Part shown: positions 6,706 through 23,732 of the stretch, piece after piece
Numbering within the stretch: the first letter of the stretch is position 1
Layout: each line of letters begins with the position of its first letter
Program-made: the position numbers and the translations under genes
The notes under the pieces: model-generated
Database searches by the model: none
Seen by the model: only the letters and a program-made list of their open reading frames with translations
Told to the model about the DNA's origin: nothing
UHGV virus genome: UHGV-0185026
Reading direction: 5' to 3' (one strand)
DNA from: a virus
DNA: 26,209 bases

Positions 6706-6800
6706 GCTGCTTTCTCCTGAAATAGAGGGCGGTGGACGGGATTTTGATGTGGCTGTGCCTTTCGCCACCCCGTGCCGCCCGTGCGCGGGGGCACGTTCTG

Positions 6801-7451: not shown

Positions 7452-7454
7452 GGT

Positions 7455-8513
7455 TTATGCTCCGGCTTCTGCGGCGGCGGCGCTGAAGTCGCCAATCTGG
7501 ATGTTTTCCACCAGTGCTGCGCAGCGGTAGTCCTCAACCACATAGGCTTCGTTAACGGATTCAAAGTTTTCAATCCGGTCACGTTTCGGGTTGTCGATAA
7601 CCGAACGGCGGCGGGTGTCCTCCTGCCAGTAAATGGACAGGTTATCCAGACGGGTGATCAGCAGCGCATTCGGCGGGAAGAACGGCGCACGCACGGCCTG
7701 CAGACCACCCATGCGTTTCTGACTGATGATCATATCGGCAGCCAGTTTTTCACTGTTTTCCTGCTCTTTGTTGACCAGCGGGAAATACTTGTCAGACAGC
7801 AGCTCACGACCGCAAATCACCACCAGATCGTCATCGTCCTGGTAGACCACGTCGATAAGCTCATTGACCGCATCCATCACCACGGCGTCCAGGTTGGCAT
7901 ATTCGCCACCTTTCCCGACTTTCACCGCACCCGGTATGGTTTCACCGCCCGTGGTGGTGCTGCCCATGACGTGATCCGGTGCATCCTCACGGATTTTCTG
8001 CAGCCAGCCTTTGTTCACATCCTGCAGCAGCGGGTTTTCGCTACGGTTAGAGGTTTTCGCACGCTTCACTCCGTTAAAGCCAATCATGATGCGGTCCAGT
8101 GCCTGACGTTTCACGATGGCGTTACGGATACGCACCTGGAAATCCTGAAACTTCGCCCACAGGTCCAGCTTCGCGTAGGTCAGCACCGTGTCAAAGTTGG
8201 TCTGTTCGCATTTGTATTCCACATCGACCATCAGCGTCGGATCGACAGGTTCACGCTCTTTCGCGGTGGTGTCAGTGGTTCCGGCAATGGTGCTGCCAAC
8301 ACCCAGCCCCAGCAGCTGACCGGACTGCTCAGTCACTGGCGTGACGTTAATCAGCGTCAGGAAAGCGGCGGACTGCTGGATCTGGTCTTCCAGCGTCTGC
8401 TGCACAGACGGCTCTACAGTGAACTTGCTGGACAGTTCTTCAACTGCCACACCGTTCAGACGTGCCAGTTGCTGCAGGTAAGCGTTAAAAGCAAAGCGGG
8501 TATTCTTCTTCAT
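7455..8513 (-). CDS. N: Major capsid protein gpN
   Basis: 352-aa ORF MKKNTRFAFNAYLQQLARLNGV..., with the size and position of the P2 N capsid protein. Confidence 0.9.
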   Translation of the reverse strand: MKKNTRFAFNAYLQQLARLNGVAVEELSSKFTVEPSVQQTLEDQIQQSAAFLTLINVTPVTEQSGQLLGLGVGSTIAGTTDTTAKEREPVDPTLMVDVEYKCEQTNFDTVLTYAKLDLWAKFQDFQVRIRNAIVKRQALDRIMIGFNGVKRAKTSNRSENPLLQDVNKGWLQKIREDAPDHVMGSTTTGGETIPGAVKVGKGGEYANLDAVVMDAVNELIDVVYQDDDDLVVICGRELLSDKYFPLVNKEQENSEKLAADMIISQKRMGGLQAVRAPFFPPNALLITRLDNLSIYWQEDTRRRSVIDNPKRDRIENFESVNEAYVVEDYRCAALVENIQIGDFSAAAAEAGA

Positions 8514-8529
8514 CAGGTTTTGTGCTCCA

Positions 8530-9363
8530 TCAGCAATTGGTCAGAGTGTCAGCGGGGGCGTTACCGCCTGTTGCACGCTGGCGGTAGTCCTGGCGGCTGT
8601 CTTCATGACTCAGCTTATTCACCAGTTCGTTAAAGGCGGTTTGCTGCTCCTGCAGAGCAGTCTCCAGCTCAGACAGGCGTTCTTCCTGCTCAGACAGGGA
8701 TTTTTCGGTGCGTGCGCTCAGGTTCTGCTGCTCAGTGGCGACCAGCTCTACGGCCTTATGCACATCAGAGAACCGGGCGTCATCGGACTGCTCTTTTTTG
8801 GTAAACAGCGCCGTGACACGGGCAAACAGGGACGGCTTGTCCTCCTGGATTTCTTCCAGTTCGATCACCGTTTCCTCTGCAGCGGTAAAAAGATTGGCGG
8901 GATTCTGCTTGCGGTTTGCCAGCGGGTTATGGGTTGCACTGGCGCTGAATGTCAGCATTTCCGTACCCAGACTGGCGGGATCATCAGTGGCAGCCAGGCC
9001 GACCAGGTAGGCTTTACCCGTATCAGCGAACTTCGGGCTGACTTCCATAGAGGTGAATAATTTCTGGCCTTTTTTCACCAGTTCCACCAGGGACTCCGTT
9101 GGCTCAACGTCGGCATACAGCGCCATCTTGCCTGCCAGCGGACCTTCCGTGATTTCTTCAGCAAACAGCGCCGTCACCTTGCCGTAGCGGTTAAAGGTGC
9201 TGTCCGGCAGATAAGACTTGATGTGCTCAAGGTTAATCAGCGCGGTATACACCGCCGGGTTGTAGCTGGCTGCCATCTGTTCCAGCCATTCACGCTGGAT
9301 TTCGCGTCCGTCGGTGGTGGCACCTTCCACCCCGATGCGAAAACGCTTTGCTTTCACTGTCAT
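8530..9363 (-). CDS. O: Capsid scaffolding protein gpO
   Basis: 277-aa ORF MTVKAKRFRIGVEGATTDGREI..., first gene of the rightward late operon, divergent from P. Confidence 0.85.
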   Translation of the reverse strand: MTVKAKRFRIGVEGATTDGREIQREWLEQMAASYNPAVYTALINLEHIKSYLPDSTFNRYGKVTALFAEEITEGPLAGKMALYADVEPTESLVELVKKGQKLFTSMEVSPKFADTGKAYLVGLAATDDPASLGTEMLTFSASATHNPLANRKQNPANLFTAAEETVIELEEIQEDKPSLFARVTALFTKKEQSDDARFSDVHKAVELVATEQQNLSARTEKSLSEQEERLSELETALQEQQTAFNELVNKLSHEDSRQDYRQRATGGNAPADTLTNC

Positions 9364-9441
9364 GAGCCGTGCTCCGTTAGAAAAAACTTACTGGAGCCTT
9401 ATGGTTGCGGTGATGGGGGCAGTGAAACAATGCGCGGTATT

Positions 9442-9459
9442 TGTACCGACAACCACACA
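9442..9459. promoter_or_regulatory. Candidate Ogr/B-type late-activator site (TGT-N12-ACA) in the divergent O/P late promoter region
   Basis: TGTACCGACAACCACACA in the 142-bp intergenic region between the divergent O and P genes. Coordinates approximate. Confidence 0.4.
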
Positions 9460-9505
9460 AACCGCAGGCGGGGAAAGCCTTCATTCAAGGCTGTAGGTTT
9501 GTGCC

Positions 9506-11272
9506 ATGAACACCACACTGACACCCGCAGATCTCGATCCCCGTCGGCAGGCCATGCTGCTGTACTTTCAGGGATACCGCGTAGCCCGCATTGCTGAAAT
9601 GCTGGGCGAGAAAGTTGCAACCGTTCACAGCTGGAAAAAACGCGACAAGTGGGGTGACTATGGGCCGCTGGATCAGATGCAGCTCACCACCGCCGCACGC
9701 TACTGCCAGCTCATTATGAAGGAGCACAAAGAAGGGAAAGATTTCAAAGAGATTGACCTGCTGGCGCGCCAGTCTGAGCGCCACGCGCGGATCGGCAAGT
9801 TTAACAATGGCGGCAACGAAGCCGACTTAAACCCTAACGTCGCCAACCGCAACAAAGGCCCACGCCGTCAGCCGGAAAAGAATGTTTTCACCGATGAACA
9901 GATTGAGAAGCTGGAAGAAATCTTCCATTCCTCCATGTTCAACTACCAGCGCCACTGGTGGGAAGCCGGAAAAACCAACCGCATCCGCAACCTGCTGAAG
10001 TCACGCCAGATCGGCGCGACCTTCTATTTTGCCCGTGAAGCCCTGATTGACGCCCTGCTGACCGGACGTAACCAGATTTTCCTTTCTGCCAGTAAGGCAC
10101 AGGCCCACGTCTTCAAACAGTACATCATCGACTTTGCCAAAGAAGTAGAGGTGGAGCTGAAAGGCGATCCGATGGTGCTTCCCAACGGGGCCACACTGTA
10201 TTTCCTCGGCACCAATGCCCGCACGGCCCAGAGTTATCACGGCAACCTGTATCTGGATGAATATTTCTGGATACCAAAATTCCAGGAGCTGCGCAAAGTG
10301 GCTTCCGGTATGGCTATTCACAAAAAATGGCGACAAACCTATTTTTCCACGCCATCCAGTCTGACACACAGTGCTTATCCGTTCTGGTCCGGTGCGCTGT
10401 TCAACCGTGGGCGCAACAAAGCCGATAAGGTGGACATCGACCTGTCCCACAGCAATCTGGCCCCCGGCCTGCTGTGCGCAGACGGGCAATACCGCCAGAT
10501 AGTCACCGTGGAAGATGCGGTGCGCGGCGGCTGTAACCTGTTCGACCTCGACCAGCTACGCATGGAGTACAGCCCGGACGAATACCAGAACCTGCTGATG
10601 TGCGAGTTTGTGGACGATCTCGCGTCCGTGTTTCCGCTCAGCGAGCTGCAGGCGTGCATGGTGGACAGTTGGGAAGTCTGGACCGACTTTCATGCACTGG
10701 CGCTGCGCCCGTTTGGCTGGCGCGAAGTGTGGATCGGTTATGACCCGGCAAAAGGCACGCAAAACGGCGACAGCGCCGGATGCGTGGTGGTGGCACCGCC
10801 AGCCGTGCCGGGTGGTAAGTTCCGCATTCTTGAGCGTCACCAGTGGCGCGGGATGGACTTCCGCGCCCAGGCTGACGCCATCAAAAAACTGACCGAACAG
10901 TACAACGTGACCTATATCGGTATCGACTCAACCGGCGTTGGTCACGGGGTTTACGAGAACGTGAAAGCGTTTTTTCCTGCCGTCCGGGAGTTTGTCTACA
11001 ACCCCAACGTTAAAAACGCCCTGGTACTCAAGGCCTACGACATTATCAGCCACCGCCGTCTGGAGTTTGACGCCGGACACACCGACATAGCGCAGTCCTT
11101 TATGGCAATACGTCGCGCCACCACCGCCAGTGGCAACCGCCCGACCTATGAAGCCAGCCGCAGCGAAGAAGCCAGCCACGCCGATCTGGCCTGGGCAACG
11201 ATGCACGCACTGTTTAACGAACCGCTGCAGGGCGAATCCGCCAATACCAGCAATATTGTGGAGATTTTTTGA
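9506..11272 (+). CDS. P: Terminase large (ATPase) subunit gpP
   Basis: 588-aa ORF MNTTLTPADLDPRRQAMLLYFQGYRVARIAEMLG...; position and size match P2 gpP. Confidence 0.9.
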   Translation: MNTTLTPADLDPRRQAMLLYFQGYRVARIAEMLGEKVATVHSWKKRDKWGDYGPLDQMQLTTAARYCQLIMKEHKEGKDFKEIDLLARQSERHARIGKFNNGGNEADLNPNVANRNKGPRRQPEKNVFTDEQIEKLEEIFHSSMFNYQRHWWEAGKTNRIRNLLKSRQIGATFYFAREALIDALLTGRNQIFLSASKAQAHVFKQYIIDFAKEVEVELKGDPMVLPNGATLYFLGTNARTAQSYHGNLYLDEYFWIPKFQELRKVASGMAIHKKWRQTYFSTPSSLTHSAYPFWSGALFNRGRNKADKVDIDLSHSNLAPGLLCADGQYRQIVTVEDAVRGGCNLFDLDQLRMEYSPDEYQNLLMCEFVDDLASVFPLSELQACMVDSWEVWTDFHALALRPFGWREVWIGYDPAKGTQNGDSAGCVVVAPPAVPGGKFRILERHQWRGMDFRAQADAIKKLTEQYNVTYIGIDSTGVGHGVYENVKAFFPAVREFVYNPNVKNALVLKAYDIISHRRLEFDAGHTDIAQSFMAIRRATTASGNRPTYEASRSEEASHADLAWATMHALFNEPLQGESANTSNIVEIF

Positions 11273-12297
11273 TGGGAAAGAGTAAGAAGAACCGCACTGC
11301 GGCGACGAATCAGATCCAGCATAAAAACCAGACTTCAGCCGAAGCATTCAGCTTCGGTGATCCCGTTCCAGTACTTGACCGCCGCGAACTGCTGGACTAT
11401 GTGGAATGTGTTCAGACAGATCGCTGGTATGAGCCTCCCGTCAGCTTTGACGGACTGGCGCGCACCTTCCGCGCTGCCGTGCATCATAGTTCCCCGATTG
11501 CAGTAAAGTGCAACATTCTGACCAGTACCTATATCCCTCATCCGCTGCTCAGCCAACAGGCTTTTTCGCGTTTTGTGCAGGACTATCTGGTATTTGGTAA
11601 CGCCTACCTGGAGAAACGCACGAACCGATTCGGTGAAGTTATCGCCCTTGAGCCTGCGCTGGCAAAATACACCCGACGCGGGTTAGACCTGGATACCTAC
11701 TGGTTTGTGCAATACGGTATGACAACCCAGCCGTATCAGTTCACGAAAGGCAGCATTTTTCATCTGATGGAACCGGACATCAACCAGGAGATCTACGGCC
11801 TGCCCGGCTATCTTTCTGCCATTCCATCCGCCCTGCTCAACGAATCCGCCACGCTGTTCCGCCGTAAGTATTACATCAACGGTAGTCATGCAGGCTTCAT
11901 CATGTACATGACCGACGCCGCGCAGAATCAGGAGGATGTGAACAACCTCCGCAACGCGATGAAAAGCGCCAAAGGTCCAGGCAACTTCCGCAATCTGTTT
12001 ATGTACTCGCCTAACGGCAAAAAGGACGGACTTCAGATTATCCCGTTGTCAGAAGTCGCAGCGAAAGATGAATTTCTGAACATCAAGAACGTGAGCCGGG
12101 ACGACATGATGGCTGCACACCGCGTACCGCCTCAGATGATGGGAATTTTGCCGAATAATGTTGGGGGGTTTGGGGATGTGGAGAAGGCTAGTAAGGTATT
12201 TATGCGCAATGAATTGGTGCCCATGCAGAAAAGATTTGATCAATTAAACGACTGGCTTGAAATAGAAATAATTAGATTTAGACCATACGTACTTTGA
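11272..12297 (+). CDS. Q: Portal protein gpQ
   Basis: 342-aa ORF; the ATG overlaps the P stop (TGATG). P2 gpQ-like position downstream of P. Confidence 0.9.
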   Translation: MGKSKKNRTAATNQIQHKNQTSAEAFSFGDPVPVLDRRELLDYVECVQTDRWYEPPVSFDGLARTFRAAVHHSSPIAVKCNILTSTYIPHPLLSQQAFSRFVQDYLVFGNAYLEKRTNRFGEVIALEPALAKYTRRGLDLDTYWFVQYGMTTQPYQFTKGSIFHLMEPDINQEIYGLPGYLSAIPSALLNESATLFRRKYYINGSHAGFIMYMTDAAQNQEDVNNLRNAMKSAKGPGNFRNLFMYSPNGKKDGLQIIPLSEVAAKDEFLNIKNVSRDDMMAAHRVPPQMMGILPNNVGGFGDVEKASKVFMRNELVPMQKRFDQLNDWLEIEIIRFRPYVL

Positions 12298-12326
12298 ACA
12301 AAAACAATAAAGTTCAGACAGTAATT

Positions 12327-12359
12327 TATATGTGGCTACAAAAATAGCAGCCACATATA
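12327..12359. terminator. Perfect 11-bp stem hairpin between convergent Q and the SMC-like ATPase gene (possible bidirectional terminator)
   Basis: TATATGTGGCT...AGCCACATATA inverted repeat lying between the Q stop (12297) and the ATPase stop (12363). No strong U-tract, so rho-independent function is uncertain. Confidence 0.3.
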
Positions 12360-12362
12360 CAA

Positions 12363-14267
12363 TTACTCAATTATTTTCAATGAATAATTATCTGGCGAAT
12401 AATACTCACCAACAATATATTCACTCTCACTGTATTTGGGATTTATTTCAGATGTTGCAAATATCAACTGATAATCATGTTCATAACGTGAGCACTCATC
12501 AATTATTATTTCCTGTAAATTGTGACTCCGTTCTTTTTCCATTCCACCATCGTCGATCCCATCTAACATCATAAATCTTGGAAGTCGCATTGAGTGGTTC
12601 TCTATACTTGCTGAAAGTAGTGCCAAATGGAATATATGCCTTAATACTACAGCTGAACTTTCAGAAAAGTTCTTACTACCATTCACATAAACGCTATTAT
12701 CAGTAAAACTAAACTCCACACTTTCAGGAGACATAAACTCTTTTTGCAAAGGCAAATCTTCTTGTAAAAGCTCTTGTGCTATTGAGCTCACTGAAGCATA
12801 AATTTTATCTTTAAGAACTTCCTCTTTTTCTTCATAAAGTTCAATAAGATCATCAAGTCTATTTTTTTCCGCCTGAAGTTCATCGCGACGCTCTTGAAGT
12901 TCATTAATAACAACAATAAGCTTCTTATCTTCATAAGCTCTTTTTATTTCTTCATCAAGCCGTCCAATTTCCCTATATATTTTACCTACAGCTAACTCTT
13001 GCGGTGAAGACCAATAGTGTGACTCTTTGAAATAATCCTGTTCAAGCCTTTTTAATTCACTCTCAGCTAAAGGAACATCTCGCTTTAATCTTACCAACTC
13101 TTCTTTTCTTCTATCCATTAATTGAAGAGATTCTTTGATTTGAAGAGTTAATTCATTTTTCATTCTTAATAACTGATTTTCAGCTTTATCATCTAATTGT
13201 TCCACTTTACATAGATGACAAACATGATCATTATGAGCCTTATCTATTTTGGAAAGACAACTAGGGCAAAAATCAAAATTCATACTATCAAATATAGCAC
13301 GCGTTTCTCCAGACTGTTCTAAGTTTTTTAGCCGCTCATTTAATTCTGATATAAACATATCAGAATCTGAAATTTCAAAATCCAAAGATTGGATTTTATC
13401 TTTTAGGGAAGATAATTTCCTTTTAGCTTCATTGAGTTCCTCCCTGATAGTACCCATTCGTTTTTCAGAATCAGCCCCTTCTTCATTAGTTATAATAGCT
13501 CTATTTGTTAGTTTTACATTCTCAATAGCTCTCAATTTATTTAGATGCTTTATTTTCTCATCAATACCTTGTAAATCTGGAGCCTGTCCAGATCTACCTA
13601 ATACAGTAAAGATACTTTTTAATTCAGTAACTTTCTTTGTTAGTTCGGTCTCAACATCTCTTAAAGAAAGTTGTGCATTGTACAACTCATCATTATAAAC
13701 ACCACATAAGTATCCACCTACCGTCTCACGGGTAAGAGCATTATCAAATCTGTCAAATCGAAAAATTGGACTATGTAACGACGGCTGATCTGCATACAAG
13801 ACACGTAAAATCTGATGCAATGTCAAATTAGAAGAACCAGCACCTTGTGCCAAGGGCATTGATAATGCATTAAAAATAGCTTGGGTGAAGCTAATTTTAC
13901 TCTCAGTTCTCTTGAATGGGTATAATTCCCATTCGTGTTCCCCAGCATTCAAAGCCTTATCCATCGCTCCCCAATAAATATAAAGAGGTCGCATTTGCTC
14001 AATAGATATCTCTCGTTTAAAGCATGCTTTCTCATTATTGAGAAGCACTTCAACGATTGTTCTAGTGCATTTCAAAGCCTGTGGTTTCCACCTGATATTT
14101 TCAGCTCCCAATGAAAATGCCAGCATATCCATTATTGTAGTTTTACCAGAACTATTTCGCCCACGAATAATGTTAACACCTTTGTGGAATTCACAATCAA
14201 ATGCACGATGTCCGTGTTGAAAAACTGTTAATCTGGTTACAATAAGAGTAGGCTTAATAAGTGTCAT
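12363..14267 (-). CDS. SMC/Rad50-like ABC ATPase with long coiled coil and central Cys4 motif (Lamassu LmuB / ABC-3C-type ATPase candidate)
   Basis: 634 aa. N-terminal Walker A (GRNSSGKTT), C-terminal Walker B/D-loop-like FMMLDGIDDGG, and about 300 residues of heptad-rich E/K/L sequence with CPSC-x13-CHLC near its middle. AT-rich composition. Confidence 0.65.
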   Translation of the reverse strand: MTLIKPTLIVTRLTVFQHGHRAFDCEFHKGVNIIRGRNSSGKTTIMDMLAFSLGAENIRWKPQALKCTRTIVEVLLNNEKACFKREISIEQMRPLYIYWGAMDKALNAGEHEWELYPFKRTESKISFTQAIFNALSMPLAQGAGSSNLTLHQILRVLYADQPSLHSPIFRFDRFDNALTRETVGGYLCGVYNDELYNAQLSLRDVETELTKKVTELKSIFTVLGRSGQAPDLQGIDEKIKHLNKLRAIENVKLTNRAIITNEEGADSEKRMGTIREELNEAKRKLSSLKDKIQSLDFEISDSDMFISELNERLKNLEQSGETRAIFDSMNFDFCPSCLSKIDKAHNDHVCHLCKVEQLDDKAENQLLRMKNELTLQIKESLQLMDRRKEELVRLKRDVPLAESELKRLEQDYFKESHYWSSPQELAVGKIYREIGRLDEEIKRAYEDKKLIVVINELQERRDELQAEKNRLDDLIELYEEKEEVLKDKIYASVSSIAQELLQEDLPLQKEFMSPESVEFSFTDNSVYVNGSKNFSESSAVVLRHIFHLALLSASIENHSMRLPRFMMLDGIDDGGMEKERSHNLQEIIIDECSRYEHDYQLIFATSEINPKYSESEYIVGEYYSPDNYSLKIIE

Positions 14268-14754
14268 ATCTATACTCCATAAGTTTAGTTCTAGCCTTCA
14301 ATCCATCAGGTCCAGTCAGATGAAATTTAGCCATCTTTTGTGTAATGAAAGATGAAAACGGTTCTTTGCGCTCTAAAAAAACGCCCATTTCTAAGGCTAG
14401 GTTCAGTGGTAATTGTTTATTTGTTCTTGAGACAAAACCATTGCTGAAATCATCAGAATCAATATAACCAGTCGCAAGCATACATTTTAGTGCTGCATCC
14501 TGTATTTGACGCATTTCCTTGAAAATAATCCTTGGACTCAATGGATCATGATATTCATTATGATGTAGTTTTGCTGTTTTTTTAATTTTAATAAATTCTC
14601 TCGGCATTTTCACTTCACTTAATAACGCAGGAAATAAAATGTAAAAATCCAATATTTTAAGCTTATCAATCTCAAGCCGATTTGTATTTTCCATAATTGC
14701 CATCATTCTAAATAGACAATGATAGGCATCATATGCTGGATGATAAACTAACAT
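14254..14754 (-). CDS. Hypothetical alpha-helical protein, translationally coupled partner of the SMC-like ATPase
   Basis: 166-aa ORF; its start overlaps the stop of the upstream gene (ATGTTAG) and its stop overlaps the ATPase start by 14 nt. No recognisable catalytic motif. Confidence 0.6.
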   Translation of the reverse strand: MLVYHPAYDAYHCLFRMMAIMENTNRLEIDKLKILDFYILFPALLSEVKMPREFIKIKKTAKLHHNEYHDPLSPRIIFKEMRQIQDAALKCMLATGYIDSDDFSNGFVSRTNKQLPLNLALEMGVFLERKEPFSSFITQKMAKFHLTGPDGLKARTKLMEYRYDTY

Positions 14755-15359
14755 TTATCCCACCTTATATAACAATTTCCGCCTAAAAAATACAACAGTC
14801 CCAAAAGATCCTTTTCGGATAAGTTTAACAAATTATCGCCCAACATTTCACTAATATTTTCTAATACCAATGAAATTTTTTCATCAACAATTACTCGGTC
14901 CTCATCCTTCTGAATAAGAGGTATAATTTTGAGCATAAAATCAGCATGAATTTTATCAAGAATAAACGCATATATTTCTTGTGCGGTTTTGGAAGATTGG
15001 CACTTCATTATCGCCTTGAGGGCTTGCTCTTTAAGAGCAGTTGCAAAGTAAATTAATTCAGTTCTATCACTATCAGTTAGCTTTGTAGCTAAATCTCTTA
15101 TATCTGGATTGGTATCCGAGGCTAAATAGTGCTTTAACTTATCACAAAAATCCTGCCCCCCCATAGTTCCATCTTCTTGAGAGAACTTTTGGTACAAACG
15201 CTCTAAAGTTCGATTACTACTACGAACTATATTGGTAATGTGGTTTGTTTGACTCCCTCCAACAATACTCCCATTTCTTACTCTATTACCTGATTGCTCC
15301 TGTTTACTAAACACACCAATCACTCCCTTAGTGAGAATTAGTCTGATCTCTACCGACAA
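14748..15359 (-). CDS. Hypothetical protein, second gene of the SMC-like ATPase operon; true start probably the in-frame GTG near 15314
   Basis: ORF of 203 codons from a TTG. An AAGGGAG ribosome-binding site overlaps the stop of the upstream small gene, about 8 nt before an in-frame GTG. The N-terminus carries an NGSIVGxxQTN motif. Confidence 0.55.
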   Translation of the reverse strand: MSVEIRLILTKGVIGVFSKQEQSGNRVRNGSIVGGSQTNHITNIVRSSNRTLERLYQKFSQEDGTMGGQDFCDKLKHYLASDTNPDIRDLATKLTDSDRTELIYFATALKEQALKAIMKCQSSKTAQEIYAFILDKIHADFMLKIIPLIQKDEDRVIVDEKISLVLENISEMLGDNLLNLSEKDLLGLLYFLGGNCYIRWDKC

Positions 15360-15510
15360 TGCTTCCGTTTGTCACTGTATTTCCATTTTGAATGGGAGAA
15401 CTTTGGTTCATACAAATTTGCTTTACTTTGTAATTATACACATTGAAAGTAATAGCCCAACTGATACCCGCCCCTGCCAAAAAACTAATGATTTCGCTTA
15501 AGTATTCCAT
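15328..15510 (-). CDS. Small single-pass membrane protein (about 60 aa), first gene of the operon
   Basis: ATG preceded by a GGAGG ribosome-binding site; hydrophobic helix IISFLAGAGISWAITFNV. The C-terminal NGSIVGRDQTN motif is repeated in the next gene. Confidence 0.45.
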   Translation of the reverse strand: MEYLSEIISFLAGAGISWAITFNVYNYKVKQICMNQSSPIQNGNTVTNGSIVGRDQTNSH

Positions 15511-15597
15511 AATGCCTCCAACAGAATGATTTACGGACAATTCTAATTGTGAAACATCATATTTAACAAGTTCTCAAATAAAACCTAATACGCGCGC

Positions 15598-15616
15598 TCG
15601 TATCCCCGCCACGCCT
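15598..15616 (-). other. Candidate cos (cohesive end) site
   Basis: The minus strand reads GGCGTGGCGGGGATACGAG followed by CGCGCG. As recalled, P2/186 cohesive ends are GGCGAGGCGGGGAAAGCAC and GGCGTGGCGGGGAAAGCAT; the first 13 nt match the 186-type end. Orientation points toward Q, as in P2. Confidence 0.3.
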
Positions 15617-15886
15617 GCCCGCTTTATATAGTGGTTTTCATGCACCTGCATGACATAAGCAAAAGCCCGCCATACCTAGCAGGCCCCAACTAGAGCGATC
15701 CTTAAACGATCATGCGGATTCATGCAGTATAGACATGCAGTAGTTACGCCAAACCGTGTAGCGAGGCCACCTGCTAAAAATGTTCACGGAGTAACATTTG
15801 ATCTCCACTGCAAAAAATGAAACTTTCGCTTTCACCAAATATAACAAGAGGTAATCTTTGGTGTTTTACACAGCAAACGGTGAGCC

Positions 15887-16468
15887 ATGAAAGTCAACAT
15901 AAAACAGATTGTTGGAAATTGGGAATTAGGTCTTGCGATGGATAAACACAGCATCCGCAGCATTCCCATTGGTTACGATGAGTGGGGACATATGCGGTTT
16001 GAGACGGAGCGTACTGAGGTAGGCGAATCTCTTTTCCAGCTTAAATACCGTGACGATTGGTCACAAGTTAAGCCTTTAGCCCAATGCCTAGCAGAGCATG
16101 CCTTTCCTCATTTCAGCAATGTCGGGTTTATCGTTCCAATGGCTGCATCTAATCAGCGTGCACGCCAGCCAGTGACCGAAATAGCTCAGGAACTAGCCAA
16201 ACTAGTTGGCAAACCATGCTTCGATGACCTCTTGTTGAAAGCCCCCGGCGGGGCATCGCTAAAGAACCTGAATACAAAAGAAGAGAAAATCACGGCGCTG
16301 GGTAATTCGTTCTCTGTTAATGACAGTATTGAGAATAATGGCAACTGGAATGTCCTTATCATTGACGACCTCTACCATACAGGCGCATCTATGGAGGCTG
16401 CTTGTGCTGTGCTAAACGATTATACTAAGGTTAGAAGCATTTATGTTGCAGCTTTGACTTGGAGATAG
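15887..16468 (+). CDS. Phosphoribosyltransferase (PRTase)-domain protein, ShosT-like candidate
   Basis: 193 aa with the PRPP-binding signature NVLIIDDLYHTGASMEAA near the C-terminus. First gene of a two-gene plus-strand module in the cargo island. Confidence 0.7.
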   Translation: MKVNIKQIVGNWELGLAMDKHSIRSIPIGYDEWGHMRFETERTEVGESLFQLKYRDDWSQVKPLAQCLAEHAFPHFSNVGFIVPMAASNQRARQPVTEIAQELAKLVGKPCFDDLLLKAPGGASLKNLNTKEEKITALGNSFSVNDSIENNGNWNVLIIDDLYHTGASMEAACAVLNDYTKVRSIYVAALTWR

Positions 16469-16470
16469 TG

Positions 16471-17028
16471 ATGACTACGGTATTTGTTGCTGGTTCAATA
16501 ACCATCAAAAACCTTGACACACTCATCGTGGATCGTCTGAAAAAAATTGTTAACTCGCGTTTTCGTATTGTAGTTGGTGATGCCAATGGTGTTGATTCAT
16601 CTGTTCAACGCGTATTGCTAGAACTTGGATGTGAAAAAGCCACAGTATTCAGTAGCTCAGAAAAACCGCGCAATAATCTTGGCTCATGGCCTGTACATGT
16701 AGTAAGTACTAGCCATGCAGCCGGCACTCGCGCGTTTTTCACTGCGAAAGATCTCAAAATGGCAGAAGAAGCCGATTATGGATTAATGGTTTGGGATACG
16801 AAGAGCACGGGTACTCTGAGTAACGTGATTGAGCTTCTTAAACGTAAAAAATACTCTGTCGTTTTTGTTAATAAATACAAAAAGTTCTTTATTATCAAAT
16901 CTCCAGAGCACCTTGACGCTTTGATTAACTGCATGTCACCAGCCTCTTTGGAAAAAGCTGATGAAAAGATCAGATTGCGCGAAAAAATCAACCAACTAAA
17001 AAACGAGCAAATCCAGATGTTTATGTGA
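16471..17028 (+). CDS. DprA/Smf-like (SLOG-type Rossmann) protein, ShosA-like candidate
   Basis: ATG two nucleotides after the PRTase stop, with a GGAGA ribosome-binding site. N-terminal VFVAGS...IVVGDANGVD pattern resembles the DprA Rossmann-fold motifs. Confidence 0.55.
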   Translation: MTTVFVAGSITIKNLDTLIVDRLKKIVNSRFRIVVGDANGVDSSVQRVLLELGCEKATVFSSSEKPRNNLGSWPVHVVSTSHAAGTRAFFTAKDLKMAEEADYGLMVWDTKSTGTLSNVIELLKRKKYSVVFVNKYKKFFIIKSPEHLDALINCMSPASLEKADEKIRLREKINQLKNEQIQMFM

Positions 17029-17117
17029 AATTCTTTGATGATAACACTAACGCCTCGCCCTGCTCGTTGTTCAACCTTGCTGGCTTCAGAATCAAGTACT
17101 GATGCCAGCAACGTTTC

Positions 17118-17351
17118 TTAATGCAGCCAGCTGTCGTCTTCCCACACCTTCTGCATAATTTTCATCACTTGTTTTCTTTCTTCGTCCAGTTGCAGTCCGG
17201 TCAGTTCCACACCGTTAGAGCTACCTTTTCGGATACGAATTACCGTTTTGGGATACAGGGGGCGCAGATTGCGGTAAAGCTCGGATTCAAGGGCGTCCAG
17301 GGTAGACTGGCTAATCTTCTGCTCTTTATCGATCATTATTTCAATGCGCAT
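17118..17351 (-). CDS. DinI-family protein (damage-inducible protein I-like)
   Basis: ORF 17118..17423; start placed at MRIEIMIDKEQ..., preceded by a GAGGTGA ribosome-binding site. The 77-aa product matches the DinI pattern (MRIE..., acidic C-terminus WEDDSWLH). Confidence 0.75.
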   Translation of the reverse strand: MRIEIMIDKEQKISQSTLDALESELYRNLRPLYPKTVIRIRKGSSNGVELTGLQLDEERKQVMKIMQKVWEDDSWLH

Positions 17352-17361
17352 AAAAGTCACC

Positions 17362-17550
17362 TCAACTGATGACATCCATTGAGCGGTTGTATTCGTGAGT
17401 TCTGATTTTTGCCATGAGTTCATCAGTCAATTCAGAAACCCACTGCAGGGCCAGCCCCTTCTCTTCATCACTACACTCACTAGCCGCTACAAGCTTAAGA
17501 AAAAAATCAATGCGCTGGAGCTTCAAAGACTCCAAAAAATAGTCCTGCAT
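17362..17550 (-). CDS. Small protein upstream of the DinI-like gene, possible Tum-like antirepressor
   Basis: 62-aa ORF with a strong AGGAGG ribosome-binding site, about 40 nt downstream of a LexA-box-like palindrome. Its position corresponds to the 186 tum operon downstream of A. Confidence 0.35.
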   Translation of the reverse strand: MQDYFLESLKLQRIDFFLKLVAASECSDEEKGLALQWVSELTDELMAKIRTHEYNRSMDVIS

Positions 17551-17590
17551 CTTTCCTCCTATGACACCAAAGCAATACTGTATACATAAC

Positions 17591-17610
17591 CACTGTTTAT
17601 ATTTACAGTA
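17591..17610. promoter_or_regulatory. LexA (SOS) box CACTGTTTATATTTACAGTA
   Basis: CTGT-N8-ACAG with an AT-rich spacer, matching the LexA consensus at about 17 of 20 positions. Located in the promoter region of the small-protein/DinI-like operon. Confidence 0.6.
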
Positions 17611-17702
17611 TATAATAATCTTACTGATGTAAAACGTTTTTTTACGCTCATCAGCCTGATATGCCTGGTATTATTAAGAGCACGAATTGTTAACCCGCGT
17701 AA

Positions 17703-20117
17703 TTAATACAGGTTTCGCCACTTATCATCTTCCTGCAAACGCTGGTTCCGATAGAAGATACGCAGGCCTGCTCCTGACGGAATACTGCCTCCGCGAAGCA
17801 GTAAATCGACCTCTTTCTCGCTGCCATCAAATCCCCTGGACTTCAGTTCATACACGAGCTGCAGTCGCTGATGGTCTGTAATTCGCTGTTTGTAGTCTTT
17901 ACGCCGTTTCGGTTTCACCAGGCGTAACCTTGCTGCCAGTTCCCGGCGCTCTTTTTTGCTCATACTGTGCAGGTAATCGTGCAACTCCTTGTCATCCATG
18001 CGGGTGATATCCGTTCTGGTATCTCCATCAGCTGATTTGTCTTTCCCTTGTTGGTACAAATTTTCAGCAAGGGGACAGTTATTGCCACGAGTCCAAGGGG
18101 CGCAAGCGCCCTGGTCGGCTGCCGCCTCCTGAACGTCAACGGCTTTACGAACCATTTTCCACTTCACTGCATGAGTGCAGATCTTGCCCTCTGCAATGGG
18201 TGACCAGATGCCATAAATACGAATGCCGTGATCGCCATAGGCGGTCGGCTCTTCGTTGATTTCATAAGCGGTTCTGATGAGGTGATATTTACGGGGAACC
18301 AGTACGCCGCCCTGCTTCATGATGTAGGTGGCAAAACAACCAGCATCAGCAGCAGCCAGAATGGCATCAAGACGCGGGTTATCCAGTACCGGCGCACCTG
18401 CTTTTTTGTCACCCTGTTGCCTTGCCGCCTGACCAGCCAGCAAGCGAAGTTCACGGTAAGCCTGACGCCCCGGAATACCAAAGAAGCGGAATTGCTGAAC
18501 ACGATGCAGAGACGCCCAGGCATTCACGTATTCAGCGTTATCACGCAGAGATTTACCCGTTTCCTTGCTGATCTCGCCAGCCAGACCACGACCGTCAATG
18601 TTCTTACTGATATATTTCGCGATGTAGCTTGTCGGCGTTCCTTTGCGCGGGTTAATCAACTCAGACTTAAAGCGCGGCCCAGTGTTATTGCCCAGCTCCT
18701 CGCGGTCTTCACGGATGGCAAACTTACGCAGTAATGCAGTGATGGCACGGCGGTCTTTTTTGCGCATGAAACACAACAGGTGCCAGTGAACTGTGCCATC
18801 ATGATGCGGCTCAGCCACCCGCACGCCATACCAGCGCAACCCGGCTTTGTGCATCGCCTTACGAAATGCAGCAAACATGCCGACCAGATAATCGCTGCTT
18901 TGTCTTACCGTCGCGTTTGTCCAGGTCGGGTTTGGTCTGCCGTTATTTAGCGTGGAATGGAAACGCGACGGACAGGTGATAGTGTAGAAAACGGCGCAGT
19001 CACCGCGCATTTCCGCGATAAGCTCCAGACCTTTAACACAGGCCATCATCTCATTGCGGCGATGCGCAGGGTTGCTGCTGCTGGCGTTTACCACATCCTC
19101 CATGTCCAGCGTGTCGCCGTCTTCGTTCACCAGTTCATGAGAACGGAAAAACTCCAGCGACTTACGGCGCTGCTCACGTTTATGCATCACGGCTTCATAG
19201 CTGACATAAGGAGATGCTTTTTTGCTGACCAGGCAAACAGCGCGCAACTGCTCTTCCCGCCATTCGCAACGCATCTTCCATAATTTCCGATACCACCAGT
19301 CGGCGCACAACATACGCGCCAGCGAACCCGGAATGAGTTCATAGGGCACGGGTTTACGGCGGTTTCTTTTCCGACGAAGTTTCTCAAACGCAGGCGGGAT
19401 AACATCCAGACGCAGGGTTTCCGCAGCCACCTTTTCCCATGTCTTGCGGATTTCTTCTGGCTTAACGTCATCGGTGGCGTACAAATCACCACAAGCGGCC
19501 TCAAGACACATGCTCATATGCGCTGCTACCAGGGTGGACAGGCGTTTCACCTGATCCTGGCTCATTTCAGGCAGGATCAGCAGCCCCTCCAGTCCTTGAT
19601 GGCTTGCCATAAAACGGAAAGAAACAGATAGCTGACTGTCACGTACACAATCCAGTCGCTCCAGACATGGCTTAATCGTCTCACGCAAATAGCGGGAATA
19701 AGCCTTTGGCCTGCCCAGGCTGCTGAAGTATTCGATACGTTGCATCAGCGGCTTGCTGATATGAGAAGGCTGGGCGCTGACATCTGCCAGAATGACCATG
19801 TCCGGGTTAAAACGCTGCTGCTCATGCGCCAGCTTTGCCCGGCTAATGAGCTTATCCTGCTCCATTTCGCGCTGGACAGGATCACGGGATTCATTAAAGA
19901 AATAACGCTCCCAGACCTGCTCACTCAGTGCCTCGCGGCGCAGTTGTTCCTGCTCGTTATCGGCAGCGTACAGAGTGATCAGGTTTGAAAGTGCAGACTC
20001 CGGCGCAACTTCCGCCGGATCCAGATAAGGGTTAATGGCCTTTTTCGGGCCGTTCCATGAAAATGCTGCGGCAGCCTCGTTAAAGCCGCTAGAGTTGCTC
20101 ATATCGTCATGACTCAT
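17703..20117 (-). CDS. A: Replication initiation endonuclease gpA (rolling-circle initiator)
   Basis: 804-aa ORF containing [12 protein letters not shown] and HHDGTVHWH-type motifs characteristic of P2 gpA-family initiators. Confidence 0.9.
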
Positions 20118-20971
20118 ACACGCACCTCGTACACAGCAAAACTATCCACGCCACGCGAAGGATCAAATCCCATCCAGCAGCGCGACCCGGAAACAGCAAT
20201 GATTTCTGTTGCAGATTTACTCTCGCCAGCTGACACGCCGATGCTGCGTTTTGCCTTGATGTAGTGGTGAGTGAAATTGCGATACAGCGAACGGATCAGG
20301 GATGTGTCACTGTTAGAAACAATGACCGGATGACCTTCTGATGATCGATATTCAAGAACGGATGCCAGGTGATACTGGTCATCTTCAGTGAAGCCGTCAG
20401 TGTGATAACCGGAAAACGTGCCGTCATACGGCGGATCGCAATACACCACATCCCCCGCCTTCAACATCGCCAGCGTTTCATCAAAGCTGGCGCAGATAAA
20501 CGTTGCTCGCTGGGCCTTTTCTGCAAATGCGCGAATTTCTTTTTCAGGGAAATACGGATTTTTATAATTACCGTAGGGAATGTTGAAATGCCCGCTCTTG
20601 TTATAGCGACATAAACCACGGTAACCGTGACGATTGAGATACAGGAAATATACCGCTTTCATGAAATCAGTAATTTCAGTTGAGTAATTAAACTCCTGCC
20701 TTATGTTGTAATAAGCTAGATCACTGTTTGCTTCCTCAAACAAAGTTCTGGTCCGCGATATAAACGCCTCGCAATCAGCGGCAATCTTTTTATAGAGGTT
20801 GATTAAATCAGGATTAATATCCGCAACCAGATAGCTGGGGTAATCCGTCTCCATCATCACAGCACAGGAACCCGCGAAAGGTTCAACCAGTCGCGGGCCA
20901 GCAGGTAGGTATTTTTTCAGTTCGGACATAATTGCGGTTTTATTTCCCGCCCATTTCAGGATGGTGCTCAT
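20114..20971 (-). CDS. dam: DNA adenine methyltransferase (Dam family, GATC-type)
   Basis: ORF 20114..21031; start placed at [11 protein letters not shown]. Contains [33 protein letters not shown] and DPPY motifs, near colinear with E. coli Dam. Its stop overlaps the A start (ATGA). Confidence 0.85.
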
Positions 20972-21195
20972 ACAGCACCTCCGTTGTAATGTTTGCCTTT
21001 CAGCTCTGCGATTTCCTGACAGGTAATGCAAAGCTGCACTCCAGGAATGGCACGGCGGCGTGCTGGCGGAATTGGTGCTTCACATTCAATGCAAAGCACG
21101 CGAGACACGCCCGGTGTTTTGGCACGGGCAGCACGGATATGGCGCTGGCGTTCTTCTTCAACGCGCTGCTGTACGAGATCCATTGCATCAGCCAT
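20968..21195 (-). CDS. TraR/DksA-family C4 zinc-finger protein
   Basis: 75 aa with CIECEAPIP...CITCQ (Cys4); its stop overlaps the Dam start. Confidence 0.7.
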   Translation of the reverse strand: MADAMDLVQQRVEEERQRHIRAARAKTPGVSRVLCIECEAPIPPARRRAIPGVQLCITCQEIAELKGKHYNGGAV

Positions 21196-22258: not shown

Positions 22259-22774
22259 TCACAGCAAACCGAATGAAGCACCGAGGCCAGTCACGGTATC
22301 AACTGCACTCGCCATCGCAGGATTAGCCTGTAAACGGGCCTGCAATGAAACAGCAGCCAACGCCATCAGTCGTGTAACAGAGTTAATGCTGCTGATCGCA
22401 TCACGACGGCCTGCACTGGTTTTTACATCGCCAGATACCGCACCTGCAGCAACACGCCCGATCTCTGCGGTTGCACTCATGACGTAATGTGGCAGTTTCT
22501 CTTTTGCCACCTCATTAATCGGTACACATGGCAGACAATGAATCTGTGCCAGAAAACCATCTACCAGCGTTGAATCTTCAGTCAGATCGGTAAGCAGCCA
22601 GATTTCTGGTGCGGTTAATAAATGAGGTTGAGCTGGGTTCAGCTTGTTCCGCAGAATCTGCACATTCATGCCAGCACGTTCTGCCAGTTGCACCAGGTTG
22701 TGGCGCAATGCGAATGCACGACAGGCTTCATCAAAATGTGGATGTTTGGAAACTTGGTAATCAAACATGGTCAA
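22259..22774 (-). CDS. cII: CII-like lysogeny-establishment regulator (phage 186 CII family)
   Basis: 171-aa [29 protein letters not shown]...[25 protein letters not shown]...GASFGLL, which I recognise as closely resembling the 186 CII pattern. Confidence 0.75.
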
Positions 22775-22800
22775 TGCCTCTGATGTATCTCAGAATCGAA

Positions 22801-23717: not shown

Positions 23718-23732
23718 TACCGGGAGGAAATT

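What the first reader, a model, noticed from the sequence alone, without database searches (positions are those of the whole stretch)
12298..17702. AT-rich cargo island between portal Q and replication gene A, apparently split by cos
Everything between the Q stop and the A stop is markedly more AT-rich than the flanking phage genes and contains no P2 core genes apart from a tum/DinI-like module. If the cos assignment near 15600 is right, cargo sits on both sides of cos: the SMC-like operon between cos and Q, and the PRTase/DprA pair between cos and A. Two different candidate defence systems stacked around the packaging site of one prophage is notable and would be co-mobilised with the phage.
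Basis: partly seen in the sequence, partly recalled or inferred. Interest (0 to 1): 0.6.

Follow-up and report, generated by a model that had tools for sequence, protein, structure and literature searches.

The report
Known P2-phage defence hotspot, two slots
This AT-rich stretch is the well-known anti-phage "defence hotspot" beside the DNA-packaging site of a P2/186-like E. coli prophage. It holds two swappable gene cassettes, so it is an ordinary example of a known thing, with two small new details inside it.

Summary
GC falls from about 0.56 (structural genes) to 0.34 at 12298-15590 and 0.43 at 15753-17117. A P2-type cos site lies at 15597-15615, inside a 150-bp conserved core (15591-15739).

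Nine related E. coli prophages match the window only up to the 3' end of Q, at the cos core, and from 17044-17108 onward. They carry different genes on both sides of cos. So there are two independent cargo slots.

This is the gpA-gpQ, cos-adjacent defence hotspot of Rousset et al. 2022, not a new phenomenon. The DinI/tum-like gene, orf62 and their LexA box are conserved lineage core, not cargo.

- **Q-side slot:** a short Lamassu (LmuB, LmuC/MC5, and an LmuA that is only a CTD9 domain with no effector). It also has a 60-aa membrane peptide gene that I found directly upstream of such short LmuA genes in 47 of 50 loci.
- **A-side slot:** a ComF-like PRTase plus a 185-aa DprA/SLOG-fold protein. 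They are adjacent in all 25 loci with a close SLOG homologue (52% identity or more) and upstream DNA. The pair resembles ShosTA but lacks its extra domains and its sequence similarity.

Defence activity is inferred, not shown.

The parts
11269..12297 (+). Portal gene Q, the left anchor of the hotspot. Homology to relatives ends at 12188-12287, so the cassette brings its own AT-rich C-terminal codons of Q.
   Evidence: ORF table; annotated as portal in relatives; junction positions from blastn.
12320..12367 (.). Strong hairpin between the convergent Q and lmuB genes; probable bidirectional terminator.
   Evidence: RNA fold -20 kcal/mol, z = -7.8, 0 of 200 shuffles as good. Function is inferred.
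12363..14267 (-). LmuB: short SMC/Rad50-like ABC ATPase, 634 aa. Walker A is GRNSSGKTT; there are two CxxC zinc-hook motifs (CPSC, CHLC).
   Evidence: PADLOC LmuB 4.5e-43; Pfam AAA_23/SMC_N; phrog_1637 1.8e-204; motifs read from the translation.
14254..14754 (-). LmuC: ABC-3C middle component 5, 166 aa.
   Evidence: Pfam MC5 2e-57; phrog_13252 5e-69.
14748..15314 (-). Short LmuA, 188 aa from the GTG at 15314, with AGGGAG 8 nt upstream. It has an N-terminal motif QSGNRVRNGSIVGGSQTN and a CTD9 domain, but no effector domain.
   Evidence: Pfam CTD9 5.2e-30. All 30 homologue clusters are 171-208 aa. Alignment; start and ribosome-binding site read.
15328..15510 (-). 60-aa single-pass membrane peptide gene, first gene of the Lamassu operon. 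Its C-terminal tail GNTVTNGSIVGRDQTN repeats the LmuA N-terminal motif, and its stop codon overlaps the LmuA ribosome-binding site.
   Evidence: phrog_17975 6.8e-9. A profile of the peptide hits directly upstream of short LmuA in 47/50 loci.
15591..15739 (.). Conserved cos core separating the two cargo slots. It contains five CATGC(A/G) repeats on the A side.
   Evidence: Invariant block in 4 prophages. Present in 1249 of 5426 complete E. coli genomes. It is the only homology between the Q and DinI anchors in 7 of 9 relatives; the other two share one of the window's cassettes. Repeats: 5 observed against 0.18 expected.
15597..15615 (-). Putative 19-nt cohesive end, GGCGTGGCGGGGATACGAG.
   Evidence: Colinear alignment with the P2 and APEC O1 cos, 14/19 identical to GGCGAGGCGGGGAAAGCAC. 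Cleavage was not tested.
15887..16468 (+). ComF-like type I phosphoribosyltransferase, 193 aa. PRPP loop is NVLIIDDLYHTGAS. Candidate toxin/effector.
   Evidence: PADLOC ShosT 1.3e-8 and PsyrT 1.5e-7; NCBIfam ComF 3.6e-5. AF2 pLDDT 88; Foldseek top hit H. pylori ComF 7p0h, E 2.5e-6; ShosT 8zvd at rank 17. Invariant D160, T165, G166 and nearly invariant D161.
16471..17028 (+). 185-aa SLOG/DprA-fold protein; candidate antitoxin or sensor.
   Evidence: AF2 pLDDT 94. Foldseek PDB top hit ShosA 8zva, E 9.3e-5, TM 0.54, then DprA, MCP, ThsA SLOG and LOG. More than 1500 homologues, all about 185 aa and without a Pfam domain. The PRTase lies directly upstream in 23/23 viral loci and 2 Neisseria loci.
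17118..17351 (-). DinI-like (186 tum-type) gene. Conserved lineage core, not cargo.
   Evidence: Pfam DinI 1.3e-22. Annotated in 8 of the 9 relatives; absent in L012. DNA homology resumes at 17044-17108 in 8 relatives and at 15590 in D2, which shares the A-side cassette.
17362..17550 (-). orf62, a conserved small gene upstream of the DinI-like gene.
   Evidence: phrog_698 3.6e-38; annotated in all nine relatives.
17591..17610 (.). LexA box CACTGTTTATATTTACAGTA upstream of orf62 and the DinI-like gene.
   Evidence: 1 mismatch to TACTGT-N8-ACAGTA. At up to 2 mismatches the whole window has 3 sites against 0.5 expected; only this one has a single mismatch.
17703..20117 (-). Replication gene A, the right anchor of the hotspot.
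   Evidence: ORF table; annotated as replication endonuclease in relatives.

Best explanation
The region is the accessory-gene (defence) hotspot that P2-family phages keep between portal gene Q and replication gene A, next to cos. Here it sits in a 186/Fels-2-like prophage of E. coli integrated beside rcdA.

It consists of two independently exchangeable slots separated by a 150-bp cos core. Three conserved anchors flank the slots: the 3' end of Q, the cos core, and the DinI/tum module. These probably serve as homology arms, so cassettes are swapped by recombination between related prophages.

Slot 1 (Q to cos) holds a four-gene short Lamassu. By analogy with characterised Lamassu systems, LmuB2-LmuC senses DNA ends or replication intermediates of an invader and releases LmuA. 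In this clade LmuA has no enzymatic domain. I infer that it recruits or nucleates the co-encoded 60-aa membrane peptide through the GNxVxGGxIVGGD motif that both proteins carry, and that this damages the membrane and aborts infection.

Slot 2 (cos to DinI) holds a minimal ShosTA-like pair. The ComF-type PRTase would be the PRPP-dependent toxin, and the DprA/SLOG-fold protein its antitoxin or sensor.

Both cassettes lie inside the packaged genome and would travel with the phage.

Shown: composition, gene families, folds, cos homology, slot boundaries, independent assortment, and strict gene pairing. Inferred: recombination at the anchors, every step of both mechanisms, and anti-phage activity.
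For: - Composition and GC3 contrast.
- Family assignments.
- Slot boundaries: homology to 9 relatives is confined to three anchors.
- Different cargo on both sides of cos in MEI005, D2, 813R9 and 6 sampled prophages: DUF4145/'ValRS'-annotated 203-aa protein, PIN/HNH, P-loop NTPase/HsdR-N, DUF6953/hypothetical, retron Ec67/DUF8087, IS30/P-loop NTPase.
- Independent assortment: 4 genomes carry this Lamassu with other A-side cargo, 16 carry this PRTase pair with other Q-side cargo, and none of 5426 carries both. The breakpoint is at 15590/15591.
- cos homology to P2; the core is present in 1249 genomes.
- Literature: the gpA-gpQ hotspot, and a validated DprA+PRTase system there (PMC9122126). The proteins WP_024219116/7 and WP_032193094 are already listed in its Table S5.
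- Lamassu sensing of DNA ends, and a clade that 'seemingly lost the effector domain' (PMC12663957).
- ShosT/ShosA mechanism (PMC11961720, PMC12961424).
- Small peptide conserved in 47/50 loci. The one informative exception has an alpha/beta-hydrolase fused to CTD9 instead.
- PRTase-SLOG adjacency in 25/25 loci.
Against: - No experiment here shows defence, toxicity or cos cleavage.
- PADLOC v2 gives no LmuA hit and only a marginal LmuC hit (8.7e-4), so standard tools might not call this a complete Lamassu.
- The LmuB Walker B reads FMMLDG, not the hhhhD[QSTE] reported for short Lamassu.
- A Lamassu variant without a known effector, taken from P4, gave no protection in one published panel (PMC13586616).
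- The SLOG protein has no detectable sequence similarity to the validated ShosA or to any PDB sequence. The PRTase's nearest solved fold is ComF, not ShosT.
- 11 of the 47 small-peptide hits were seeds of the profile.
- The six-prophage sample is small.
Confidence: 0.8

Rival explanations
1. The AT-rich genes are ordinary conserved content of this phage lineage and merely have unusual composition. They are not exchangeable cargo.
For: The DinI-like gene, orf62 and the early region are also below the GC of the structural genes (0.43-0.47), yet they are conserved.
Against: Nine prophages whose flanks are 94-98% identical carry unrelated genes in both slots. Only 4 and 16 of 5426 genomes hold each cassette.
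Confidence: 0.02
2. The two cassettes are not immune systems. The Lamassu is a decayed remnant that lost its effector. The PRTase/SLOG pair is a plain addiction module or a nucleotide-metabolism accessory gene that stabilises the prophage.
For: LmuA has no effector domain. An effector-less Lamassu from P4 gave no protection in one panel. ShosTA itself is a toxin-antitoxin system.
Against: The short LmuA, LmuC, LmuB and the small peptide gene are intact and syntenic in 47 loci spanning Gamma-, Beta- and Alphaproteobacteria and beyond, which argues for selection rather than decay. The NAR 2026 paper states that a similar Lamassu variant was shown to be anti-phage. Both modules sit in a locus where more than a third of cloned systems were active. 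The PRTase pair recurs in prophages of several kinds, including next to Q in a distant P2-like contig.
Confidence: 0.15
3. The conserved 150-bp block is not cos but some other conserved regulatory element, such as a promoter/terminator or a small RNA. The island would then be one slot rather than two.
For: A search for the exact P2 cos with up to 3 mismatches found nothing. No phage record in the collection opens at this site to give an experimental anchor. A weak terminator-like site overlaps 15619-15634.
Against: The block aligns colinearly with the experimentally defined P2 cos, including 14/19 of the cohesive end and both flanks. It lies at the position expected from P2 synteny and in the right orientation relative to Q. 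The same sequence precedes the systems cloned from the hotspot in Rousset Table S2. Whatever the block is, cargo assorts independently on its two sides.
Confidence: 0.05

Closest known systems
P2-like phage gpA-gpQ (cos-proximal, old/tin) defence hotspot; Rousset et al. 2022, Cell Host Microbe (PMC9122126); Moura de Sousa et al. 2026, NAR (PMC13586616)
   Same: Same position (between Q and A, next to cos). Same behaviour (highly variable cargo, often more than one system). Some of the very same proteins are listed in Table S5 of that paper.
   Different: The parts of those papers I read define the hotspot by its flanking core genes and treat it as one locus. Here it resolves into two slots split by the non-coding cos core. 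In this 186/Fels-2-like lineage the Q-side slot is occupied, whereas in P2 itself only about 230 bp separate Q from cos and all cargo (old, tin, orf91) lies on the A side.
[quoted passage not shown] 2025, PMC12663957)
   Same: LmuB of about 634 aa with zinc hooks, LmuC (MC5), and an LmuA reduced to its C-terminal domain (CTD9).
   Different: A fourth gene, a 50-70-aa single-pass membrane peptide that shares a motif with the LmuA N-terminus, is conserved directly upstream. The word 'transmembrane' does not occur in the main text of that paper. I could not confirm that this family is clade O. I also could not read Krishnan et al. 2020, where it might be described.
ShosTA (the 'DprA + PRTase' system of E. 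coli APEC O1, from the same P2 hotspot)
   Same: A two-gene PRTase plus DprA-fold pair. ShosA is the best solved-structure match of the 185-aa protein. The PADLOC ShosT profile hits the PRTase. Same hotspot and same side of cos.
   Different: The gene order is reversed. The PRTase is 193 aa and lacks the N-terminal pyrophosphatase domain that occupies residues 1-164 of the 424-residue ShosT. The partner is 185 aa against 327 aa, with no BLASTP, Pfam or PADLOC similarity to ShosA. The closest fold of the PRTase is ComF.
Coliphage 186 tum (DinI-like antirepressor under a LexA-controlled promoter); from my own knowledge of 186
   Same: A DinI-domain gene preceded by a LexA box, located between A and cos.
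   Different: Antirepressor activity was not tested. The gene is 77-101 aa, depending on which start is used.

Membership tests
P2-family gpA-gpQ defence hotspot | Lies between portal gene Q and replication gene A of a P2-like prophage | tested here: met
   ORFs and annotated relatives.
P2-family gpA-gpQ defence hotspot | Adjacent to the cos packaging site | tested here: met
   cos homology at 15597-15615 inside a conserved core.
P2-family gpA-gpQ defence hotspot | Gene content varies between otherwise closely related prophages | tested here: met
   Nine relatives carry different cargo.
P2-family gpA-gpQ defence hotspot | Cargo confers anti-phage protection | not testable with these tools
   Needs plaque assays.
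P2-type cos | 19-nt cohesive-end sequence and flanks homologous to P2 cos | tested here: met
   14/19 identical, with a colinear flank alignment. An exact-pattern search with up to 3 mismatches failed.
P2-type cos | Cleaved by terminase to give the virion ends | not testable with these tools
   No phage record in the collection opens at this site.
Lamassu (short type) | LmuB: SMC/Rad50-like ABC ATPase of about 600 aa with Walker A and a coiled coil, with or without a CxxC zinc hook | tested here: met
   PADLOC LmuB 4.5e-43 over residues 5-572. GRNSSGKTT, CPSC and CHLC read in the translation.
Lamassu (short type) | Walker B of the form hhhhD[Q/S/T/E] | tested here: inconclusive
   The sequence reads FMMLDG. 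I made no alignment of LmuB homologues.
Lamassu (short type) | LmuC middle component | tested here: met
   Pfam MC5 2e-57.
Lamassu (short type) | LmuA carrying the conserved C-terminal domain | tested here: met
   Pfam CTD9 5.2e-30.
Lamassu (short type) | LmuA N-terminal effector domain (nuclease, lipase, Sir2, protease and so on) | tested here: not met
   188 aa, with only an 18-aa motif plus a linker before CTD9. All homologues are 171-208 aa. This matches the published effector-less clade rather than canonical Lamassu.
ShosTA | Toxin with a PRTase domain and an intact PRPP loop | tested here: met
   PADLOC ShosT 1.3e-8. PRTase fold, with ShosT at TM 0.52. DD-x3-TG conserved in the PRPP loop: D160, T165, G166 invariant, D161 nearly invariant.
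ShosTA | N-terminal pyrophosphatase (HAD-like) domain fused to the PRTase | tested here: not met
   The protein is 193 aa, one domain plus a short beta-meander. ShosT has 164 extra residues.
ShosTA | Antitoxin with a DprA-like Rossmann (SLOG) fold | tested here: met
   Foldseek top hit ShosA 8zva, E 9.3e-5, followed by DprA structures.
ShosTA | Antitoxin recognisable as DprA family by sequence (PF02481 or the PADLOC ShosA model) | tested here: not met
   PF02481 E = 0.21; no PADLOC hit; no BLASTP alignment to the APEC O1 ShosA.
ShosTA | Toxin-antitoxin behaviour, ssDNA/RecA binding, anti-phage activity | not testable with these tools
   Needs expression and binding assays.
186 tum-type SOS module | DinI-domain protein with a LexA box in its promoter region | tested here: met
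   Pfam DinI 1.3e-22. LexA box at 17591-17610 with 1 mismatch.

The most novel reading that the evidence does not exclude
The 'effector-less' short Lamassu clade is not effector-less. Its effector is a separately encoded 50-70-aa single-pass membrane peptide. This peptide is coupled to the CTD9-only LmuA through a short motif (GNxVxGGxIVGGD) present at the peptide's C-terminus and at LmuA's N-terminus. That would be a trans-effector architecture not described for Lamassu in the papers I could read.

In addition, the ComF-type PRTase + 185-aa SLOG pair is a widespread, strictly coupled, minimal relative of ShosTA. It is absent from PADLOC v2 and would be a defence or toxin-antitoxin system in its own right.
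Probability: 0.4. Interest if true: 0.55.

Novelty: new member of a known kind. Interest (0 to 1): 0.35.

Why it matters
As a whole the finding adds nothing conceptually new. It is one more P2-family prophage using its cos-proximal hotspot to carry immune cargo.

Three refinements may be useful.

1. In the 186/Fels-2-like lineage the hotspot is really two slots separated by the cos core, with three short conserved anchors. This gives a simple picture of how cassettes are shuffled, and a cleaner way to delimit them in censuses. Gene-based delimitation lumps both slots together with the conserved DinI module.

2. A Lamassu clade described as having lost its effector carries a conserved membrane-peptide gene. 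This gives a testable answer to how that clade could kill or arrest the cell.

3. A minimal PRTase/SLOG pair offers a stripped-down model for the ShosTA class of systems.

Tried and rejected
- A search for the exact P2 cohesive end with up to 3 mismatches found nothing. cos was then found by reading the sequence and aligning it.
- A DNA direct-repeat search around 15200-15560, meant to explain the shared peptide motif as a recent duplication, found none. The similarity exists at the protein level only.
- Sequence searches of the PDB with the SLOG profile and with the PRTase gave only chance-level hits. Fold comparison was needed.
- BLASTP of the 185-aa protein against the validated APEC O1 DprA/ShosA gave no alignment. 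I therefore do not file the pair as ShosTA.
- Searching the Lamassu slot DNA against 50,697 phage records in distant mode gave no match, although PHROG families exist for all four genes.
- Searching the cos core in phage records for a genome opened at cos gave no such record.
- A literature search for the RefSeq accessions found no paper text; they appear only in a supplementary table.
- Krishnan et al. 2020 (ABC-3C) could not be read.
- My first regex and hydrophobicity filter for the small peptide was too strict (13 of 45 loci). I replaced it with an HMM scan of all six frames.
- I considered that the small ORF and LmuA were one frameshifted gene, and rejected it. They are separate, adjacent ORFs in all 47 loci, and LmuA has its own ribosome-binding site and start.

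Full report
**What the window is.** The window is most of a P2-family prophage.
- It encodes terminase P (9506-11272), portal Q (11269-12297) and replication gene A (17703-20117, minus strand).
- Beyond A it encodes a Dam methylase, DUF2732, DUF5347, a 186-type CII, a 186-type CI repressor and an integrase, followed by the host gene rcdA.
- The host is E. coli. The last 1 kb matches 5423 of 5426 complete E. coli genomes.
- The closest phage records are Peduoviridae from Escherichia, Klebsiella, Salmonella (Fels-2, SopEPhi) and Yersinia.

**Checking the observation.** The composition contrast is real and large.
- GC is 0.559 over 1-12297 and 0.53 in A. It is 0.342 over 12298-15590 and 0.43 over 15753-17117.
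- Third-position GC is 0.24-0.36 for the four minus-strand genes, 0.46 and 0.37 for the two plus-strand genes, and 0.57-0.69 for O, P, Q and A.
- The two halves differ from each other as well as from the phage, which fits separate origins.

**cos.** A search for the exact P2 cohesive end failed. However, the minus strand at 15597-15615 reads GGCGTGGCGGGGATACGAG.
- Aligned with the P2 and APEC O1 hotspot sequences printed in Table S2 of Rousset et al. 2022, this matches 14/19 of the P2 cohesive end.
- Both flanks align colinearly (CGCGC on the Q side; GCCCGCTT...GGTTTT.ATGCACCT on the A side). The orientation relative to Q is the expected one.
- The site lies in a block, 15591-15739, that is nearly invariant in four related prophages. 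At 80% coverage or more, this block is present in 1241 of 5426 complete E. coli genomes.
- On its A side the block holds five CATGC(A/G) repeats, where 0.18 are expected. I take these to be terminase-binding elements, but that is inference.
- Cleavage itself could not be tested. No phage record in the collection opens at this site.

**Cargo or core?** I compared the window with nine related E. coli prophages whose flanks are 94-98% identical. Three came from the first searches and six were taken at even steps through the 1253 cos-core matches.
- Homology ends at 12188-12287, inside the last codons of Q.
- In the seven relatives that share neither cassette, it reappears only at 15591-15739.
- It then resumes at 17044-17108, just upstream of the DinI-like gene.
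- Between these anchors each prophage carries something different, and all six sampled prophages have cargo on both sides of cos.

| Prophage | Q-side cargo | A-side cargo |
|---|---|---|
| MEI005 | this Lamassu | DUF6236 |
| D2 | 778-aa AAA ATPase | this PRTase pair |
| 813R9 | Hypoth_Ymh | none |
| CUVET24-CCU25 | DUF4145 | 203-aa protein annotated as 'valyl-tRNA synthetase' |
| 2452 | PIN | HNH |
| CPEC80 | P-loop NTPase | HsdR-N |
| EC5502 | DUF6953 + hypothetical | hypothetical |
| JNEC-KY202 | retron Ec67 | DUF8087 |
| MS20659 | IS30 + hypothetical | P-loop NTPase |

- It is met for 17047-17702. The DinI-like gene, orf62 and a LexA box (CACTGTTTATATTTACAGTA, 1 mismatch) are conserved lineage core of the 186 tum type, not cargo.

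**Two slots, not one island.** Among 5426 complete E. coli genomes:
- four carry this Lamassu module with other A-side cargo;
- sixteen carry this PRTase pair, at 98.8-100% identity, with other Q-side cargo;
- none carries both;
- the homology breakpoint in those sixteen falls at window 15590/15591, the edge of the cos core.

In P2 itself, Q is separated from cos by only about 230 bp, and old, tin and orf91 all lie on the A side. The occupied Q-side slot is therefore a feature of this sub-lineage.

**Literature.** This is the published hotspot.
- Rousset et al. [quoted passage not shown] They found 1,650 gene arrangements in 18,150 loci and noted that many hotspots hold more than one system. 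They also validated several systems, including a DprA + PRTase pair.
- The RefSeq proteins of both window cassettes (WP_024219116/WP_024219117 and WP_032193094) are already listed in their Table S5, as 'hypothetical' or 'AAA_23'.
- A 2026 study of 1511 P2 elements reaches the same picture and defines hotspots by the flanking core genes.
- In the parts I read, neither paper separates the locus at cos. That is a refinement, not a discovery.

**Slot 1: a four-gene short Lamassu.**
- The 634-aa protein matches PADLOC LmuB (4.5e-43). It has a Walker A motif and two CxxC zinc hooks.
- The 166-aa protein is Pfam MC5 (2e-57).
- The next protein is Pfam CTD9 (5.2e-30) and nothing else. Its likely start is the GTG at 15314, behind an AGGGAG ribosome-binding site, which gives 188 aa. 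All 30 homologue clusters are 171-208 aa.
- This resembles the short Lamassu clade that Haudiquet et al. [quoted passage not shown] I did not place this LmuB in their phylogeny.
- Directly upstream lies a 60-aa ORF (15510-15328) with a GGAGG ribosome-binding site and one hydrophobic helix. Its C-terminal tail, GNTVTNGSIVGRDQTN, repeats the N-terminal motif of LmuA, SGNRVRNGSIVGGSQTN. It matches phrog_17975.

I fetched 46 loci encoding relatives of this LmuA from one-genome-per-species contigs. I then scanned all six frames of these loci, three further loci and the window with a profile of the peptide.
- A full-length hit lies immediately upstream of LmuA, on the same strand, in 47 of 50 loci. 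It occurs nowhere else in them, apart from a partial hit to the LmuA N-terminus itself.
- Two of the three misses are at contig edges.
- The third, L059, has a 446-aa CTD9 protein with an N-terminal alpha/beta-hydrolase and no peptide gene.
- Eleven of the hits were profile seeds. The other 36 are independent, with E-values of 1e-11 to 1e-27.
- The taxa span Gamma-, Beta- and Alphaproteobacteria, plus a Bacteroidota and a Firestonebacteria MAG.

I infer that the peptide is the missing effector, acting in trans and coupled through the shared motif. This has not been shown.

**Slot 2: a minimal ShosTA-like pair.**
- The 193-aa protein has a PRPP loop (NVLIIDDLYHTGAS) and weak ComF, ShosT and PsyrT profile hits.
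- Its AlphaFold model (pLDDT 88) matches H. pylori ComF best (E 2.5e-6). ShosT is at rank 17.
- The 185-aa protein has no Pfam, NCBIfam or PADLOC family. It has more than 1500 homologues of uniform length.
- Its model (pLDDT 94) matches ShosA of E. coli APEC O1 best (E 9.3e-5, TM 0.54). The next matches are DprA, the molybdenum-cofactor carrier protein, the ThsA SLOG domain and LOG.
- The two genes are adjacent, 5-15 nt apart, in 23 of 23 viral contigs that have a SLOG homologue of at least 52% identity and upstream sequence. They are also adjacent in a chromosomal islet of Neisseria dentiae, at 55% and 63% identity. In one distant P2-like contig the pair again sits next to Q.
- The pair differs from characterised ShosTA in four ways: reversed gene order; no pyrophosphatase domain on the toxin; a partner about half the size; and no sequence similarity to ShosA.
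- I therefore describe it as working like ShosTA, with a PRPP-dependent toxin held in check by a DprA-fold partner. I do not file it as a member.

**Verdict.** The particular cargo combination was not seen in any of 5426 complete E. coli genomes, as expected for freely reassorting slots. What is worth keeping is the two-slot anatomy with its three anchors, the conserved membrane-peptide gene of the effector-less Lamassu clade, and the strictly coupled minimal PRTase/SLOG pair. All functional statements are inferences from homology, fold and gene context.

Noticed in passing
window 15328-15510 (-) and 14748-15314 (-); loci L007-L009, L016-L061: A 50-70-aa single-pass membrane peptide gene sits directly upstream of CTD9-only (effector-less) LmuA in 47/50 loci. 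Its C-terminal tail shares the motif GNxVxGGxIVGGD with the LmuA N-terminus. The only informative exception, L059, has an alpha/beta-hydrolase fused to CTD9 and no peptide gene.
   Followed up: yes
window 12188-12297: Homology to related prophages ends 10-110 bp before the Q stop codon, and the last codons of Q are AT-rich. The Q-side cassette therefore seems to bring its own C-terminal tail of the portal protein.
   Followed up: partly
window 15639-15739: Five CATGC(A/G) repeats lie on the A side of the putative nick site, where 0.18 are expected. ATGCA repeats also follow cos in the P2 and APEC O1 sequences. They may be terminase-binding elements.
   Followed up: partly
window 17591-17610: A LexA box with one mismatch lies upstream of orf62 and the DinI-like gene, as in the SOS-inducible tum module of phage 186. 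This suggests the prophage is SOS-inducible.
   Followed up: partly
window 19997-21031; L001, L002: Homology to MEI005 and D2 stops at 19997, inside the 5' end of A. Those prophages carry a different 273-aa hypothetical protein (WP_001420002.1) where the window and most relatives have a Dam methylase (PADLOC orphan MTase 5e-110; GC 0.47). This is probably another small variable slot.
   Followed up: partly
window 22750-24250: A second GC trough (0.35-0.42) covers the CI repressor and the region upstream of the integrase. This is the immunity region. I did not examine it for cargo.
   Followed up: no
L004 3387-5561 (Neisseria dentiae); phrog_289: In Neisseria a 314-aa MMR_HSR1 GTPase gene directly precedes the PRTase-SLOG pair. 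The SLOG protein also matches the first 170 positions of a 500-aa PHROG annotated 'GTP-binding domain'. This hints at three-gene or fused SLOG-GTPase variants.
   Followed up: no
L082 3478-6545: In a distant P2-like viral contig (Q 50% identical) the PRTase-SLOG pair again lies next to Q and P. The same cassette type therefore recurs in the equivalent hotspot of a divergent lineage.
   Followed up: partly
window 12363-14267 (-), LmuB residues about 575-585: The Walker B region reads FMMLDGIDDGG. This differs from the hhhhD[Q/S/T/E] reported for short LmuB and the hhhhDD reported for long LmuB. I did not check it against homologues.
   Followed up: no
window 12320-12367: A very stable hairpin (-20 kcal/mol, z = -7.8) lies between the convergent Q and lmuB genes and overlaps the lmuB stop codon. 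It is probably a bidirectional terminator that insulates the cassette from late transcription.
   Followed up: partly
L012 (CPEC80), L002 (D2), L015 (MS20659): Several prophages carrying this cos core are degraded: a truncated terminase fused to tail remnants, an IS30 insertion, and a capsid gene with an internal stop. They still keep hotspot cargo, so the cargo can outlive the phage.
   Followed up: no
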